Source of the DNA: Naegleria gruberi
Lineage: Eukaryota
Reading direction: 5' to 3' (one strand)
Assembly: GCA_000004985.1 (NCBI GenBank)
Contig: GG738873.1
Length of the DNA stretch: 64,000 nt
Of this stretch, positions 24,325 to 56,528 are shown in pieces. The notes below the pieces were generated by a model. That model had not been told where the DNA came from. It ran no database searches and saw nothing but the letters and a program-made list of their open reading frames with translations. The position numbers and the translations under genes are program-made. Numbering within the stretch: position 1 is the first letter of the stretch; the number at the start of each line of letters is the position of its first letter.

Positions 24325-26703
24325 TTGTTTGATGAAAAAAAAATGTTGAAACGATTCCTCAGTGCTAGTGTTGCTCATCATCACTATTCGAACACAACCT
24401 CATCATCAACAATACTCTCATCGGTAATTCCTTCAGGTAAAAATTTTGCCAATAATGCCTCTTCATTAGTATTAAATTTGAGAAATTATTCTTCGTCATC
24501 TTCTCAAGATAAGAAAGTTTCATCTCTAAAACACACAACACGTCAAAAGGATATTAAAAGTAATCAAGATAGTACGGATTCTCTCGGAAATATTATGTTT
24601 GAATTACCAAGTGATAAAATCAGAAATGTAGGAATTATTGCTCATATTGATGCTGGAAAAACAACAACAACTGAAAGAATGCTTTATTATAGTGGATATA
24701 GTTCTCATTTGGGAAATGTTGATGATGGTGATACAATTACTGATTATATGCCACAAGAACAAGAAAGAGGTATCACCATTACAAGTGCTGCAATTACATT
24801 TAAATGGAAGGATCATAGAGTTAATTTAATTGATACTCCTGGTCACGTTGACTTTACTTTTGAAGTGGAAAGATCAGTGAGTGTTTTGGATGGTGCTGTT
24901 GCAATTTTTGATGTTGTCAATGGTGTGGAAGCTCAAAGTAAGACAGTTTGGAGACAAGCAGATAGATATAATGTACCAAGAATTGTTTACATGAATAAGA
25001 TGGATAAAATTGGAGCTAATTTTGAAACAGCAATTGAAACCTTGTTGGAAAGATTGCCAAGTTGTCCAACCCCAATTCCTATTCAATTACCTAGTGGAAC
25101 AGAAGATGCTTTCAATTCAGTTTTTGATTTGATTGAATTGAAGGAATATGTTTTCACAGGTGATGAATCTAGAACTTATAACATTAAACCAATTCAGGAA
25201 AAGGATTTAGCAAGAGTTACGGAAGCAAGAGAAACAATGATTGATACTATTGCTAGTCTTGATGATGAATTAGGAGAAAAATATTTAAACGAGGAAGAAA
25301 TTACATCTGAGGATATTCACAATGCTGTCAGAAGAGTTACAATTGAGAGAAAGGGTATTCCAATTTTCTGTGGAAGTTCATTGAAGAATAAGGGAGTTCA
25401 ACAAGTTATGGATGGTATTGTGAGATATCTTCCTGGTCCAAAAATTGATGAAGCTTCAAAGCAAAGAGAATTGAATGCCTTTGCCTTCAAGGTTATTAAC
25501 GATGTACAAAGAGGGTTATTGGTATTCGTTAGAGTTTATAGTGGTTCTGTTGATATCACTAAATCTCCAGCAATTTTCAATCACTCAAAGAATCAAAAGG
25601 AAAGAATTGGTAAAGTTTATCAAATGCATGCCAACGTTCCTCAAGAAGTCAAGAAAATCTCAGCTGGTAACATTGGTGTCCTTGTTGGTTTGAAAGAAAC
25701 AGGTACAGGTGATATTCTTGTTGCTAAACAAGGATCCAAGACTGACCCGTCAATTCCACAACTTTCTGTTCCAAAACCTGTTTTCTTCTGTTCAATAGAG
25801 GCTGAAAATAGTGCAGATCAAGATGCTCTCGATAATGCCTTGTCAATTATGCAAAAGGAAGACCCAAGTTTACAAATTACAAATAATGAAGAAACCAATC
25901 AAACACTTGTGAGTGGTATGGGTGAATTGCATTTGGAAATTATTAAGGATAGAATTTTAACAGAATACGGTATCAATGTTGAAATGGGTGAGGTACAAAT
26001 TTCATACAGAGAAACACTTACTGTCGAATCACCAGTCACATATTTGGAATTTGATAAGAAACTCACCACTGGAAAGAGACTTTATGCTAGGTTGTGGATT
26101 AAAGTTGGTCCTGCCGAATCTGGTGTAGGAAATAACGTCGAGTTTGATTGGGATGAGGATAAATGTACTCCAGACATGAAGACTATCAAGAAATTTGAAA
26201 AATCCATTAGATATGGTCTTGAAAGTAGTTTCATGAGAGGTGCTCTCTTGGGATATCCAATCGAAGAAATCAAGGTTACAGTTGTTGGAGCATCAGTTTT
26301 GGATGAGAATAGAGAACAAATCGTTGTAGGAGAAGAATTACAAAATCAATCATTTATTCAATGTGCCCACTCATTGTTTACTAAGATTTTGAAGGACAAT
26401 GAACAGAGTGCCAGACTTTTGGAACCATATATGAATTTGGAAATTGAAACAGATAGAGCATATATTGGTACAATTATGTCAGATTTGACAGGTTCTAGAA
26501 GAGCTAAGATTAAGGGTATGCAAGCTAGAAATGACCTCACAGTTATTTCAGCAGAAGTACCACTCAGTGAAATGATTGGATACAGTTCTCATTTGAGATC
26601 ACTCACATCTGGTCAATGCCACTATCATATGGACTTTGCTAGATATGAAACTTTACAACAAGAATATCAAAGAAAGCTCATTACAAAACTGAGAGGTTAT
26701 TAG
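24325..26703 (+). CDS. gfm2: Mitochondrial elongation factor G 2 / ribosome-recycling GTPase (EF-G2mt, GFM2/MEF2-like)
   Basis: N-terminal presequence-like region, then EF-G GTPase motifs GIIAHIDAGKTTTTERMLY (G1), DTPGHVDF (G3), NKMDK (G4). EF-G domains II-V are colinear. Length 792 aa. Confidence 0.88.
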   Translation: MFDEKKMLKRFLSASVAHHHYSNTTSSSTILSSVIPSGKNFANNASSLVLNLRNYSSSSSQDKKVSSLKHTTRQKDIKSNQDSTDSLGNIMFELPSDKIRNVGIIAHIDAGKTTTTERMLYYSGYSSHLGNVDDGDTITDYMPQEQERGITITSAAITFKWKDHRVNLIDTPGHVDFTFEVERSVSVLDGAVAIFDVVNGVEAQSKTVWRQADRYNVPRIVYMNKMDKIGANFETAIETLLERLPSCPTPIPIQLPSGTEDAFNSVFDLIELKEYVFTGDESRTYNIKPIQEKDLARVTEARETMIDTIASLDDELGEKYLNEEEITSEDIHNAVRRVTIERKGIPIFCGSSLKNKGVQQVMDGIVRYLPGPKIDEASKQRELNAFAFKVINDVQRGLLVFVRVYSGSVDITKSPAIFNHSKNQKERIGKVYQMHANVPQEVKKISAGNIGVLVGLKETGTGDILVAKQGSKTDPSIPQLSVPKPVFFCSIEAENSADQDALDNALSIMQKEDPSLQITNNEETNQTLVSGMGELHLEIIKDRILTEYGINVEMGEVQISYRETLTVESPVTYLEFDKKLTTGKRLYARLWIKVGPAESGVGNNVEFDWDEDKCTPDMKTIKKFEKSIRYGLESSFMRGALLGYPIEEIKVTVVGASVLDENREQIVVGEELQNQSFIQCAHSLFTKILKDNEQSARLLEPYMNLEIETDRAYIGTIMSDLTGSRRAKIKGMQARNDLTVISAEVPLSEMIGYSSHLRSLTSGQCHYHMDFARYETLQQEYQRKLITKLRGY

Positions 26704-50864: not shown

Positions 50865-52037
50865 TTATTGCCTCAGAATTTCAAATTCCTCAATTTTTGC
50901 ATAACTTGATGCTCTTTTGTCCTGTCTTACTGATTCTGACACTATTTCTATGTCTCTTTTCAATTCATCACTGGCATATTTAAGGGCTACTCCTTGTAAC
51001 TTGACAACTGTTAACACGAATAGTCTATCATTTCTTAATGAAACATCTGCATATTCAAATGCTAGACCATTTTGTGATGCTGCAAGTAAAACTATCTCTC
51101 TATCTTTCTTGAGTGATTCAATCGCGTAACAAAGGGCTTTACCATTCTGTTTCACAGCCCCAGTTACTATTTCTCTATCTTCCCTTAATATCAAGTCAGC
51201 AAATTTTAAGGATTTTCCATTTTGTAGAACAGCTTTTAATACAATTTCTCTATCTTTCTTTAAAGATATATCAACGTATTGTAAAATAAGTCCATTTCTT
51301 TGTAGCGCCAATAGTACAAATTCTCTATCTCTTTTGAATACATCATTTGCAAGTGAAAACTCCCGTGGATTATATTTGATGGTGAGTAACAAGATATTCT
51401 TATCTTTTCTGTGATATTCCTTATAGACTGTTCGTGGTAATAAATGCCCAAAAGGAATGGAGGATATCACGCCTTGATGATTATTCCCATCTTCAATTAT
51501 TTCTTTTGACATGATTAATGAATCAATATTAATTGATTCATCTGCATATTCCACAGCATCCACATTTTGATTTACAGCTACGGTAACTATTTCTCTATCT
51601 TTTCTTAATGAAGGATCAGCATATCTAAGAGCCCTTCCATCTTGTTTTACTGCCATTAATACTATTTCTCTATCACAATTCAAAGGATATTCAATAAATT
51701 CGAGAGCTCTTCCATTTGTTGACACTGCTATTAAAGCCATGTCTTTTTGTTTCTTAAATATTTCGTTCGCATATTTAAGAGCAGAACCATTTTGATGAAT
51801 TGCCTTTCGTACTATTTCTTCTTCTCTTTTCAATGACTCATCAGCATACTTCAATGAGCATCCATTTTGTCCAATGGCAGTTTCAACAATCTCTCTATCT
51901 TTTCTGAAACGATAAGCTGCGCTTGCTAAATGCCAGCCATTTTTTCTGACAGCTTCCAATGCAATTTCTCTATCTTCTCTAAATGATTTATCAAGATGCC
52001 TAAAGATTGATCTACTACTACTTTTAACGGCCTCCAA
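50865..52037 (-). CDS. DUF4116 repeat array, in frame with and immediately downstream of the kinase ORF. It is probably the C-terminal part of the same gene, separated only by a single TAG.
   Basis: The 19 codons between the ORFs (52038..52094) have no stop and read FGYSIKYVNFELRKDREIV, continuing the repeat. By analogy with the preceding repeat QAVKQFGYYLKYA, the TAG position corresponds to Gln (CAG). The track 'M' at 52037 is a TTG. Confidence 0.6.
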   Translation of the reverse strand: MEAVKSSSRSIFRHLDKSFREDREIALEAVRKNGWHLASAAYRFRKDREIVETAIGQNGCSLKYADESLKREEEIVRKAIHQNGSALKYANEIFKKQKDMALIAVSTNGRALEFIEYPLNCDREIVLMAVKQDGRALRYADPSLRKDREIVTVAVNQNVDAVEYADESINIDSLIMSKEIIEDGNNHQGVISSIPFGHLLPRTVYKEYHRKDKNILLLTIKYNPREFSLANDVFKRDREFVLLALQRNGLILQYVDISLKKDREIVLKAVLQNGKSLKFADLILREDREIVTGAVKQNGKALCYAIESLKKDREIVLLAASQNGLAFEYADVSLRNDRLFVLTVVKLQGVALKYASDELKRDIEIVSESVRQDKRASSYAKIEEFEILRQ

Positions 52038-52094
52038 TACTATTTCTCTATCTTTCCTTAATTCAAAATTAACATATTTGATGGAATAACCAAA

Positions 52095-53309
52095 CTATTT
52101 AACTGCTTGCAATACAATTTCTTTTTCGTTCTTGAAATCTTCTTTCGCATATTTGAGATAATATCCAAATTGTTTAACAGATTGTAAGGTTATCTCCCTA
52201 TCATCTTTATCAAGTAGTTCAAGAGAGACACCAAGAGAAGCACAGATTAATTGAACATTCCTATTCTCTGCAAGAGCTTGATTGAGGTGATGAAATTGAT
52301 GAGATAACATGATTGGTCCTTCAATCTGTCCATTTTCAGAGAATATTCTTTTCAAAATTTGTTGACAAGAAGGTCTATTCTCTGGATTCTCACTCAACAT
52401 TTCCACAAGCAATTTAAATATAAAAATCCATCCATCTTCATCTTCCTCTAAATTACCTAACTCTATTAATTTTCGTACAGTTTCCACTTCATTAGATATT
52501 ATTTCTCTTACCATAGAAGAGTATTGATCTAGATGTGTTATTCTGTTTTCATTTGTTGGAAAAAGAATAAACAGAATTAATCTAGCCAAACTCCAAATAT
52601 CACTCTTGAACGATTCTCCCAATTTTGCACATTCAGGTGCAACAAAACCTGGACTACCATTAAGAGTATAACTCTCATGCATGTTGAGATCATTCGAATA
52701 ATCAATGTGGTCCATTCCTTGGTTAGAAAACCGATCATCATTAGAAATGGCAATCCCAAAATCTGCCAAAACAACATCAATAGCACATATTTTACAATCA
52801 GTATCATGAAGTGAAATAATAATATTCTCTGGTTTGATATCTCTGTGAATTATGTTTGCCTCCTCAAGTTTACAAAGAGCATTCACAATTCTAATGAAAA
52901 TTTGTAAAATTTGACATAATAAAATCCTTCCATTCTTGTTAATTTGCATATCTGTATAATTTTTCAAATCAATTCCTCTATATTTTGATACTGTCACAAC
53001 CATGTCATTAAAATTATCCACAAAATCAAATGTCAATAAACTGGCATCATGTAATTCTTCTGAAATTTTAGCAAATTTCCAATCACCAACCGGACAATCA
53101 TCAAAATCATCATCTTCTCCTCGTTTAACAATTTTTACAACATATTCCTGATTGTCAATGGATAGACATTTGCAAACTACAACATTGTTTCCCTTCTTAA
53201 ATATTTGAATAGGAATATATTGAATATTATTAATGAAAAATGGTTTTCCAAGCCTGGAGAGAGCCTCGTATAGATTTTGATCATCGTTCGTACTTTGATG
53301 TTCAATCAT
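52095..53309 (-). CDS. Ser/Thr protein kinase domain followed by the start of a DUF4116 repeat region. It terminates at an in-frame TAG (52095-52097), after which the same frame continues into the feature at 50865..52037.
   Basis: Kinase subdomains: VVKIVKRGE (VAIK-like), HRDIKPENIIIS (catalytic loop), DFGIA (DFG), GSPGFVAPE (APE). The last ~50 aa, KDDREITLQSVKQFGYYLKYAKEDFKNEKEIVLQAVK, are DUF4116 repeats. Confidence 0.7.
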   Translation of the reverse strand: MIEHQSTNDDQNLYEALSRLGKPFFINNIQYIPIQIFKKGNNVVVCKCLSIDNQEYVVKIVKRGEDDDFDDCPVGDWKFAKISEELHDASLLTFDFVDNFNDMVVTVSKYRGIDLKNYTDMQINKNGRILLCQILQIFIRIVNALCKLEEANIIHRDIKPENIIISLHDTDCKICAIDVVLADFGIAISNDDRFSNQGMDHIDYSNDLNMHESYTLNGSPGFVAPECAKLGESFKSDIWSLARLILFILFPTNENRITHLDQYSSMVREIISNEVETVRKLIELGNLEEDEDGWIFIFKLLVEMLSENPENRPSCQQILKRIFSENGQIEGPIMLSHQFHHLNQALAENRNVQLICASLGVSLELLDKDDREITLQSVKQFGYYLKYAKEDFKNEKEIVLQAVK

Positions 53310-53455
53310 TTTTTAATGAATTTATTCATAATTTTAGTGGCAGTGTTGCATATTTAAGTTGATTGTAAACCTCTAATTAAGCAACATACTGTATTGGATC
53401 AACATCATTCAGAATACCAAATATTTACTGTTCATAATTCCCAATAAGCTGAAAT

Positions 53456-53460
53456 AAAAA
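53456..53460 (-). terminator. Pol III T5 terminator directly 3' of the 5S rRNA gene
   Basis: Plus-strand AAAAA at 53456-53460, i.e. TTTTT on the 5S (minus) strand immediately after the 3' end of helix I. Confidence 0.7.
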
Positions 53461-53578
53461 GACTACAGCACCACAGGTTCCCAAGTTGTCTCCAACCTCA
53501 GTACTGATGTGGCTCGACGATGCTTAACTTCTCAAATCGGACGGGATGAGGTGCATTCATCGTGATATGGCCGTAGCC
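53461..53578 (-). rRNA. 5S ribosomal RNA gene
   Basis: The minus-strand sequence GGCTACGGCCATATCACGATGAATGCACCTCATCCCGTCCGATTTGAGAAGTTAAGCATCGTCGAGCCACATCAGTACTGAGGTTGGAGACAACTTGGGAACCTGTGGTGCTGTAGTC is colinear with the universal 5S consensus (GCCTACGGCCATACCACCCTGAACGCGCCCGATCTCGTCTGATCTCGGAAGCTAAGCAGGGTCGGGCC…GTACT…GGGAGACC…GGGAA.ACC.GGTGCTGTAGGC). The 5' GGCUACGGC pairs with the 3' GCUGUAGUC to form helix I. A TTTTT run follows immediately. Confidence 0.85.
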
Positions 53579-53822
53579 ATTCATTGATTTAAAATGTTGA
53601 ATATTAATGAAGAAAACTATGAGGTTATTTCTTGATGAATATTACCTGATTGGTTAAAGTTAGGAAATTCAGCAACATAACACGTCAATTGATGTGACGA
53701 TTGAATTTCAACTCCATAAAAGATTAACAAATAAATGTTGCGTTAGTATGTAGAAATTCAAAAATTAGAATTAATTCTGTTGATCATTTATTTACATTTT
53801 GGCTATACAAGTATTTGATGTT

Positions 53823-54170
53823 TCATTTAAAGGTTCTATGCAACAATTCCATTTGATATTGTTGTTTTTCAATTTGCTGTAATTCAATTAATTTTAATCT
53901 TCTTTGCTCCACTGATTTATTATATTCAGATCTTGATGAAATCAATGGATATCTTCCACTCACGATTCGTTGAAGTGAATACTTTGGTTTGTTCTTTTCC
54001 CAAAAATCTACTTTTCTATTTGTTATTTCCTTATCCCGAACATAATCAGAAAAGTATTTCAGTTTACTCTCTTCCTTAATTCTAGCATCCAAATTTGATG
54101 GATTATTGGGATGCTTATTTCCAAACATTTTTTTTAAATTGTAGTTTATTTTGGCGGGTAAAACCATCAA
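53823..54170 (-). CDS. Small basic hypothetical protein (115 aa)
   Basis: ORF with an A-run before the ATG. Basic, with a coiled-coil-like C-terminus (RRLKLIELQQIEKQQYQMELL). It could be a small mitochondrial ribosomal or respiratory-complex subunit, but no family was recognised. Confidence 0.35.
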   Translation of the reverse strand: MMVLPAKINYNLKKMFGNKHPNNPSNLDARIKEESKLKYFSDYVRDKEITNRKVDFWEKNKPKYSLQRIVSGRYPLISSRSEYNKSVEQRRLKLIELQQIEKQQYQMELLHRTFK

Positions 54171-56159: not shown

Positions 56160-56528
56160 TTACTTCTTCTTTGATTTGGTGGTTTCAACAGCAGCTTCAA
56201 CTGGAGCATCTTCCTTCTTGACAACGTAAATCATCATGTTAGAGTGCTTGATGACTGGCTTGATCAAATCCTTTTCTTCGAGGTATCTCAAACCCTTCTT
56301 GGCAACGCTACCAGTAACACCGAGAGCTTCAGAAACTCTAGCAATGGTGATCAACTTCATCTTTGGGACTTCCTTGACCAATTGGTTGAATGACTTGGTG
56401 TCGAAGAGAACCTTGTTGTTCAACTTCTCCTTAACTCTTGATTTAGACCACTTCTTCTTCTTTCCCTTTGAGCCGCTTTCTCTGGCTGCGGCCTTTTGGG
56501 CTTGAATTTCCTTAGACTTTCCAGCCAT
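56160..56528 (-). CDS. rps25: 40S ribosomal protein S25 (eS25)
   Basis: KKKKWSKSRVKEKLNNKVLFDTKSFNQLVKEVPKMKLITIARVSEALGVTGSVAKKGLRYLEEKDLIKPV is colinear with human RPS25 [70 protein letters not shown]. Confidence 0.92.
   Translation of the reverse strand: MAGKSKEIQAQKAAARESGSKGKKKKWSKSRVKEKLNNKVLFDTKSFNQLVKEVPKMKLITIARVSEALGVTGSVAKKGLRYLEEKDLIKPVIKHSNMMIYVVKKEDAPVEAAVETTKSKKK

What the first reader, a model, noticed from the sequence alone, without database searches (positions are those of the whole stretch)
53440..53600. Stand-alone 5S rRNA gene embedded between Pol II genes
A canonical 118-nt 5S rRNA on the minus strand, with helix I pairing and an immediate T5 Pol III terminator, sits in the 500-bp spacer between the kinase gene and a small ORF. 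There is no adjacent rDNA. In D. discoideum the 5S gene lies on the extrachromosomal rDNA palindrome, so a dispersed chromosomal 5S copy is informative about rDNA organisation in this species. It may also come with co-located Pol III elements. Only one copy lies in this window.
Basis: partly seen in the sequence, partly recalled or inferred. Interest (0 to 1): 0.5.

Follow-up and report, generated by a model that had tools for sequence, protein, structure and literature searches.

The report
Ordinary dispersed Naegleria 5S rRNA gene
This is an intact 5S ribosomal RNA gene, but the DNA comes from the amoeboflagellate Naegleria gruberi, where a 2012 survey already listed about 280 such copies scattered among protein-coding genes, so it is ordinary.

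Summary
Rfam RF00001 matches window 53460-53578 (- strand) at 105.4 bits (gathering score 38), over the full model. All 34 consensus base pairs are standard pairs and a T5 run follows the 3' end. It is the only 5S gene in the 64 kb, and there is no tRNA or other rRNA. Related 5S genes from metagenome contigs show compensatory changes at 13 of 34 pairs, so the fold is under selection.

The neighbouring kinase is 100% identical to a Naegleria gruberi predicted protein on a 462-kb contig, so the organism is not a dictyostelid. In Naegleria the 18S/5.8S/28S genes sit on a circular extrachromosomal element. PMC3369914 (2012) already listed 279 putative 5S genes in the N. gruberi assembly and reported them as unlinked to rDNA. 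My parse of its Table S1 gives 117 scaffolds, a median neighbour spacing of about 34 kb, and no head-to-tail arrays.

A solitary 5S gene in an intergenic spacer is therefore the norm here. I found no co-located Pol III genes and no support for a mobile-element origin. Upstream there is only a weak TATA-like element near -27. Verdict: real feature, already known, low interest.

The parts
53460..53578 (-). 5S rRNA gene (118 nt plus terminal U)
   Evidence: RF00001 at 105.4 bits, gathering score 38, full model. 34 of 34 consensus pairs are standard. Covariation is seen across 12 related genes.
53456..53460 (-). T5 run, the inferred RNA polymerase III terminator. Its first T is the last nucleotide of the Rfam match.
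   Evidence: Read from the sequence. A T3-T5 run sits at the same place in 10 of the 11 related copies that have downstream sequence.
53515..53529 (-). Box A of the internal control region (+50 to +64), AGTTAAGCATCGTCG
   Evidence: Exact match to the consensus quoted in PMC3369914, at the canonical position. The consensus core alone is not specific: 163 matches in the window against 190 expected by chance.
53482..53499 (-). Box C-like segment of the internal control region (+80 to +97), GAGGTTGGAGACAACTTG
   Evidence: 10 of 12 specified consensus positions match. Only 5 sites this good occur in the window, both strands counted.
53600..53607 (-). TATA-like element TTAATATT at -29 to -22 (inferred upstream promoter element)
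   Evidence: Several related copies have an A/T-rich TATA-like motif at about -21 to -30, and AT content peaks there at 0.77 against 0.60-0.74 elsewhere. Support is weak. PMC3369914 also reports a TATA box upstream of N. gruberi 5S genes.
52095..53309 (-). Context: downstream neighbour, a protein kinase with a C-terminal DUF4116 repeat. Its ATG lies 146 bp beyond the 5S terminator.
   Evidence: 100% identical to an N. gruberi predicted protein.
53823..54170 (-). Context: upstream neighbour, a 115-aa ORF with no Pfam family. Its stop lies 244 bp upstream of 5S +1.

Best explanation
This is one copy of the nuclear, multi-copy, dispersed 5S rRNA gene family of Naegleria gruberi. It is a self-contained RNA polymerase III unit. 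Inferred from established knowledge of type-1 Pol III genes: the internal control region (box A at +50, a box C-like segment at +80) and probably a TATA-like element near -27 recruit the Pol III machinery. Transcription starts at or next to G53578 and stops in the T5 run at 53456-53460. The roughly 119-nt RNA folds into the usual three-helix-junction 5S structure and enters the large ribosomal subunit. It is separate from the 18S/5.8S/28S genes, which in Naegleria lie on an extrachromosomal circle. Shown here: identity, integrity, covariation of the fold, solitary position, and organism. Inferred: promoter use, the exact start site, and that this particular copy is transcribed.
For: RF00001 at 105.4 bits against a gathering score of 38, full length, with no non-standard pair flagged. 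34 of 34 consensus pairs are standard. The MFE fold is the 5S shape. In 12 related genes, 98.7% of pair cells are standard pairs against 27-41% with slid partners. 13 of 34 pairs change on both sides, and 0 of 500 shuffles reach this. A T5 terminator follows the 3' end. Box A matches exactly at +50 and box C at 10 of 12 positions at +80. The organism is N. gruberi, and GC of about 33% fits. PMC3369914 lists 279 putative N. gruberi 5S genes as not located with rDNA units and as having an ICR and a TATA box. Its Table S1 gives 117 scaffolds and a median neighbour gap of 33.9 kb. Each of 13 metagenome contigs sharing the same helix III 27-mer holds exactly one 5S gene. In L009 the gene sits in a 400-bp spacer between two long co-directional ORFs, as it does here. 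Naegleria rDNA lies on a circular extrachromosomal element carrying 18S, 5.8S and 28S (abstracts of PMC5805870, PMC10586121 and PMC11075319).
Against: No expression data exist for this copy. With about 280 copies, some may be silent. Position 24 (loop B, unpaired) is U here but A in all 11 related genes, so this may be a minor variant. I could not map the window onto the scaffold coordinates of Table S1, so I have not shown that this exact copy is among the 279. The TATA-like element is only weakly supported, and the box A consensus is not discriminating. PMC3369914 found no TFIIIA in N. gruberi by BLAST or PSI-BLAST, so how the internal promoter is read there is unknown.
Confidence: 0.93

Rival explanations
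1. A silent or decaying copy: structurally intact but not transcribed, one of many redundant dispersed copies.
For: The copy number is high, 279 hits of which 15 are clearly partial. U24 is unique among the 12 aligned genes. The IE consensus is not matched at its canonical +67 to +72.
Against: It is full length with 34 of 34 pairs intact and a terminator present. It scores the same as its closest relative, L006: 105.4 against 106.3 bits. U24 is in an unpaired loop position that is only weakly conserved in the Rfam consensus.
Confidence: 0.1
2. A 5S-derived mobile or retroposed unit (SINE-like or Cassandra-like) inserted between two genes, bracketed by a 14-nt target-site duplication at 53375-53388 and 53666-53679.
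For: A 13/14 direct repeat brackets the gene (family D5). Only 2 of 40 shuffles of the flanks reach it. The many dispersed copies need some spreading mechanism.
Against: There is no poly(A) tail and no LTR. Similarity between copies stops at the gene ends, even for L006, which differs by 1 nt within the gene. None of the 8 other loci tested has a comparable flanking repeat. About one such repeat is expected among all pairs in a 1.2-kb AT-rich region (my estimate).
Confidence: 0.03
3. One reading: a dispersed chromosomal 5S copy in a dictyostelid species, contrasting with the D. discoideum palindrome-borne 5S.
For: The genome is AT-rich with dictyostelid-looking genes such as actin, LRR and kinase.
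Against: The kinase is 100% identical over its full length to an N. gruberi protein, and no other hit is above about 37% identity. A GC of 33% is well above the roughly 22% I recall for D. discoideum (my own knowledge).
Confidence: 0.01

Closest known systems
The Naegleria gruberi 5S rRNA gene family as catalogued in PMC3369914 (PLoS One 2012), Table S1
   Same: Same organism. Same gene length (117-119 nt), TATA-like upstream element, ICR and T-run terminator as described there. Not linked to rDNA.
   Different: Nothing substantive differs. I could not match this copy to a specific Table S1 row. That paper's Table 1 calls the arrangement 'tandem', but its own coordinates show dispersal.
Dispersed 5S rRNA genes of Neurospora crassa, Schizosaccharomyces pombe and Acanthamoeba castellanii (reviewed in PMC1635290)
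   Same: Solitary 5S units scattered along the chromosomes and detached from the large rDNA.
   Different: A different eukaryotic supergroup. In Naegleria the large rDNA is on an extrachromosomal circle. TFIIIA is documented in Acanthamoeba (reference title) but was not found in N. gruberi by BLAST.
Yarrowia lipolytica dispersed 5S genes, including tRNA-5S dicistrons (PMC2566860)
   Same: 5S genes are scattered through the genome and are not in rDNA units.
   Different: No tRNA gene lies upstream of this copy or anywhere in the 64 kb, so it is not a tRNA-5S transcriptional fusion.
Dictyostelium discoideum 5S gene on the extrachromosomal rDNA palindrome
   Same: Both organisms keep their large rRNA genes on an extrachromosomal element.
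   Different: In D. discoideum the 5S gene lies within the rDNA repeat. In Naegleria it does not. The organisms are unrelated.

Membership tests
5S rRNA (Rfam RF00001) | Covariance-model score at or above the curated gathering score, over the full model | tested here: met
   105.4 bits against 38, model 1-120 of 120, E 4.4e-22
5S rRNA (Rfam RF00001) | Helices I-V of the consensus structure can form | tested here: met
   34 of 34 consensus pairs are standard. The MFE fold gives the same three-way junction.
5S rRNA (Rfam RF00001) | The structure is maintained by compensatory change among relatives | tested here: met
   13 of 34 pairs change on both sides. 98.7% of cells are paired against 27-41% with slid partners, and 0 of 500 shuffles reach this. 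Helix III is uninformative because the search seed lay in it.
Type-1 RNA polymerase III gene | Oligo-T terminator directly after the mature 3' end | tested here: met
   T5 at 53456-53460
Type-1 RNA polymerase III gene | Internal control region: box A (+50-64), intermediate element (+67-72), box C (+80-97) | tested here: inconclusive
   Box A matches exactly at +50 and box C at 10 of 12 positions at +80. The IE matches only at +61, not +67. The box A core is non-specific. All of these overlap conserved RNA sequence, so a match does not prove promoter function.
Type-1 RNA polymerase III gene | Transcription by Pol III with TFIIIA, TFIIIC and TFIIIB | not testable with these tools
   This needs ChIP or in vitro transcription. 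PMC3369914 reports TFIIIB and TFIIIC but no TFIIIA in N. gruberi.
Dispersed (unlinked, non-tandem) 5S organisation | No 18S, 5.8S or 28S gene and no second 5S gene nearby | tested here: met
   This is the only Rfam match at gathering score in 64 kb. The permissive scan adds nothing credible. The 27-mer scan with 3 mismatches finds 1 site.
Dispersed (unlinked, non-tandem) 5S organisation | Genome-wide scatter of copies | tested here: met
   Taken from published coordinates, not from the assembly itself: 279 hits on 117 scaffolds, median gap 33.9 kb, minimum 462 bp
tRNA-5S dicistronic gene (Yarrowia type) | A tRNA gene immediately 5' of the 5S gene | tested here: not met
   ARAGORN finds 0 tRNAs in the window. 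Rfam at E<=1 finds no tRNA.
5S-derived SINE or retroposed copy | Shared non-5S body or tail, a poly(A) or simple-repeat tail, and target-site duplications | tested here: not met
   Flanks cannot be aligned between copies. There is no A-tail. The bracketing repeat is borderline here and absent from 8 other loci.

The most novel reading that the evidence does not exclude
Naegleria's roughly 280 solitary 5S genes might be transcribed without a TFIIIA. None was found by BLAST or PSI-BLAST in PMC3369914, and no upstream tRNA could supply a Yarrowia-style bypass. Transcription would then depend on an upstream TATA-like element plus an unknown factor. Because a copy such as this one ends only 146 bp from the next gene's ATG, it might also influence Pol II neighbours. 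My data neither test nor exclude this.
Probability: 0.12. Interest if true: 0.45.

Novelty: already known. Interest (0 to 1): 0.08.

Why it matters
It matters little in itself. It confirms a correct 5S annotation and corrects the assumed organism. Its modest value is as a clean example of the scattered 5S arrangement, which reviews call rare (Neurospora, S. pombe, Acanthamoeba, Yarrowia), in a heterolobosean whose large rDNA is entirely extrachromosomal. It also shows that the 2012 survey's 'tandem' label is not borne out by that survey's own coordinates. The open question is not raised by this locus in particular. It is how a dispersed family of this size is kept near-uniform and transcribed if TFIIIA is truly absent.

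Tried and rejected
1. Exact-product look-up of the RPS25 ORF returned only a 514-bp ENA metagenome contig. The same look-up for the kinase found nothing on record. I therefore could not get scaffold coordinates to match this copy to a row of Table S1.
2. A permissive Rfam scan for further Pol III genes or 5S fragments gave only two sub-threshold snoRNA-like hits, at E 0.4-0.6 and far below their gathering scores. I treated them as chance.
3. The bacterial-type promoter and terminator scan is not appropriate for a eukaryote. It found no promoter-like sites, and its terminator-like hits were a small palindrome at 53683-53699 (scored on both strands) and a hairpin at 53567-53580 at the 5' end of the gene.
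4. Box A consensus as evidence of a promoter: rejected as non-discriminating.
5. Target-site duplication or mobile unit: borderline in the window and absent elsewhere, so rejected.
6. Conserved upstream motif across copies: the flanks are not alignable. There is only a slight A/T peak at -30 to -21.
7. Two literature calls failed because a search term was shorter than 3 characters.

Full report
**Observation.** Rfam cmscan of the whole window returns a single match at gathering level: RF00001 (5S rRNA) at 53460-53578 on the - strand. It scores 105.4 bits against a gathering score of 38, with E 4.4e-22, covers model positions 1-120 of 120, and no non-standard pair is flagged.

I mapped the Rfam consensus pairing onto the sequence, and all 34 pairs are standard. 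Helix I has 9 pairs, two of them G-U. The minimum-free-energy fold independently gives the three-way-junction 5S shape, at -41.5 kcal/mol with z = -2.6.

The last nucleotide of the match is the first T of a T5 run at 53456-53460. The gene lies in the 513-bp spacer between the ATG of a kinase ORF (53309) and the stop of a 115-aa ORF (53823). All three are on the - strand.

**More than chance, and under selection.** One scan of the metagenome collection with a 27-mer from helix III found 13 contigs. Each holds exactly one 5S gene.

- One of them, L006, differs from the window copy by a single base.
- The others carry a related 5S.
- On the gapless alignment of 12 genes, 98.7% of pair cells are standard pairs, against 27-41% when the 3' partners are slid.
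- 13 of 34 pairs show changes on both sides, and no shuffle out of 500 reaches the observed values.
- Helix III never varies, but that is uninformative because the search seed lay in it.

**Organism.** The kinase ORF next to the gene (52095-53309, -) is 100% identical over all 404 residues to 'predicted protein [Naegleria gruberi]' on a 461,873-bp contig. The next-best hit is about 30% identical. GC is about 33% across the window. The window is N. gruberi nuclear DNA, so the comparison with the D. discoideum rDNA palindrome does not apply.

**What is already known.**

- PMC3369914 (PLoS One 2012) searched the JGI N. gruberi assembly and reported 279 putative 5S genes. It described them as not located with rDNA units and as having an internal control region and a TATA box. 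It found no TFIIIA by BLAST or PSI-BLAST.
- Its Table S1 gives scaffold coordinates. I parsed them and found hits on 117 scaffolds, with a median distance of 33.9 kb between neighbours on the same scaffold. The minimum distance is 462 bp and only 9 gaps are under 2 kb.
- Fifteen rows are short partial hits. The rest span 112-140 nt.
- The family is therefore dispersed with some loose clusters, not arranged in head-to-tail arrays, although that paper's Table 1 ticks 'tandem'.
- At about 279 copies in a genome I recall as about 41 Mb (my own knowledge), roughly 0.4 copies are expected per 64 kb. One solitary copy in this window is what the genome normally looks like.

I could not place the window on a named scaffold, so I have not shown that this exact copy is a row of that table.

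**Surroundings.** There is no tRNA in 64 kb, and no other credible RNA family even at E <= 1. The neighbours are ordinary Pol II genes: a kinase with a DUF4116 repeat, a DUF4116-repeat ORF, an LRR protein, actin, RPS25 and an adenylate kinase. In the longest related contig, L009, the 5S gene likewise sits in a 400-bp spacer between two long co-directional ORFs. L006 and L003 also have ORFs close by.

**Promoter anatomy.** I used the consensus patterns quoted in PMC3369914.

- Box A matches exactly at +50 to +64.
- A box C-like segment matches 10 of 12 specified positions at +80 to +97. Only 5 sites that good occur in the whole window.
- The intermediate element is not matched at its canonical +67 to +72.
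- The box A core is statistically worthless on its own, with 163 matches against 190 expected by chance.
- All of these elements overlap conserved RNA sequence, so 'ICR present' is little more than a restatement of '5S rRNA'.

Upstream, TTAATATT lies at -29 to -22 (53600-53607). Several related copies have TATA-like motifs at about -21 to -30, and AT content peaks there at 0.77 against 0.60-0.74 in other bins. This is suggestive only. Otherwise the flanks of different copies do not align at all, even between the window and L006.

**Mobile-element rival.** A 14-nt direct repeat (13/14 identical) brackets the gene at 53375-53388 and 53666-53679. Only 2 of 40 shuffles of the 250-nt flanks reach that level, but none of the eight other loci shows anything comparable. 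There is no A-tail, and similarity between copies ends at the gene borders. I regard the repeat as chance.

**Mechanism (inferred).** As a type-1 Pol III gene, the unit should be recognised through its internal control region and possibly the -27 TATA-like element. It should be transcribed from about G53578 and terminated in the T5 run. Its product enters the large ribosomal subunit. None of this is measured for this copy. Position 24 (unpaired, loop B) is U here and A in all 11 relatives. This may mark a minor variant, but it does not affect pairing.

**Comparison and novelty.** The closest known thing is the N. gruberi 5S family itself, as already catalogued. By analogy, the arrangement matches the scattered 5S genes of Neurospora, S. 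pombe and Acanthamoeba (PMC1635290) and of Yarrowia (PMC2566860). It is already known.

The only loosely novel thread concerns how Naegleria reads 5S promoters if TFIIIA is really absent, and how about 280 scattered copies stay nearly uniform. That question belongs to the whole family and not to this locus, and it was not tested here.

**Verdict.** This is a real, intact and probably functional 5S rRNA gene. The feature is ordinary and already described, and interest is low.

Noticed in passing
window 53375-53388 and 53666-53679: A 14-nt direct repeat (AATTAAGCAACATA / AATTCAGCAACATA, 13/14) brackets the 5S gene at -101 to -88 and at 72-85 nt past its 3' end. It is borderline against shuffles (2 of 40), and eight other 5S loci have no counterpart.
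   Followed up: yes
window 53683-53699: Palindrome CGTCACATCAATTGACG (5-bp arms with CGTCA/TGACG half-sites), 105-121 nt upstream of 5S +1 and about 125 nt downstream of the stop of ORF 53823-54170. It could be a factor-binding site or the 3'-end signal of the upstream gene. Its function is unknown.
   Followed up: no
window 50865-53309 (- strand): The kinase ORF (52095-53309) ends in a DUF4116 repeat. After a 57-nt gap it is followed by a 390-aa ORF (50865-52037) made of 7 DUF4116 repeats. The two may be exons of one kinase-DUF4116 gene separated by a short intron.
   Followed up: no
PMC3369914, Table 1 versus Table S1: The paper marks N. gruberi 5S genes as 'tandem'. Its own coordinates put 279 hits on 117 scaffolds with a median spacing of 34 kb and no arrays, so they are dispersed with a few loose clusters 1.5-5 kb apart.
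   Followed up: yes
window 53555 (5S position 24): The window copy has U in loop B where all 11 related metagenome 5S genes, including the otherwise identical L006, have A. This may be a minor variant within the family.
   Followed up: partly
L009 2227-2345, L006 539-657 and the other metagenome loci L002-L014: Each of the 13 environmental contigs sharing the helix III 27-mer carries a single 5S gene next to long ORFs, so the solitary arrangement extends to relatives. L014 has GC-rich flanks and no T-run directly after the gene, which suggests a more distant organism.
   Followed up: partly
window 36514-36573 (+) and 24357-24410 (-): Sub-threshold box C/D snoRNA-like Rfam hits: snoCD11 at 27 bits against a gathering score of 60, and sR28 at 21 bits against 39, with E about 0.4-0.6. 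These are probably chance.
   Followed up: no
L001 (ENA ERZ4842812, 514-bp contig): A metagenome contig encodes an RPS25 100% identical to the window's RPS25 (56160-56528), which suggests Naegleria DNA in that sample.
   Followed up: no
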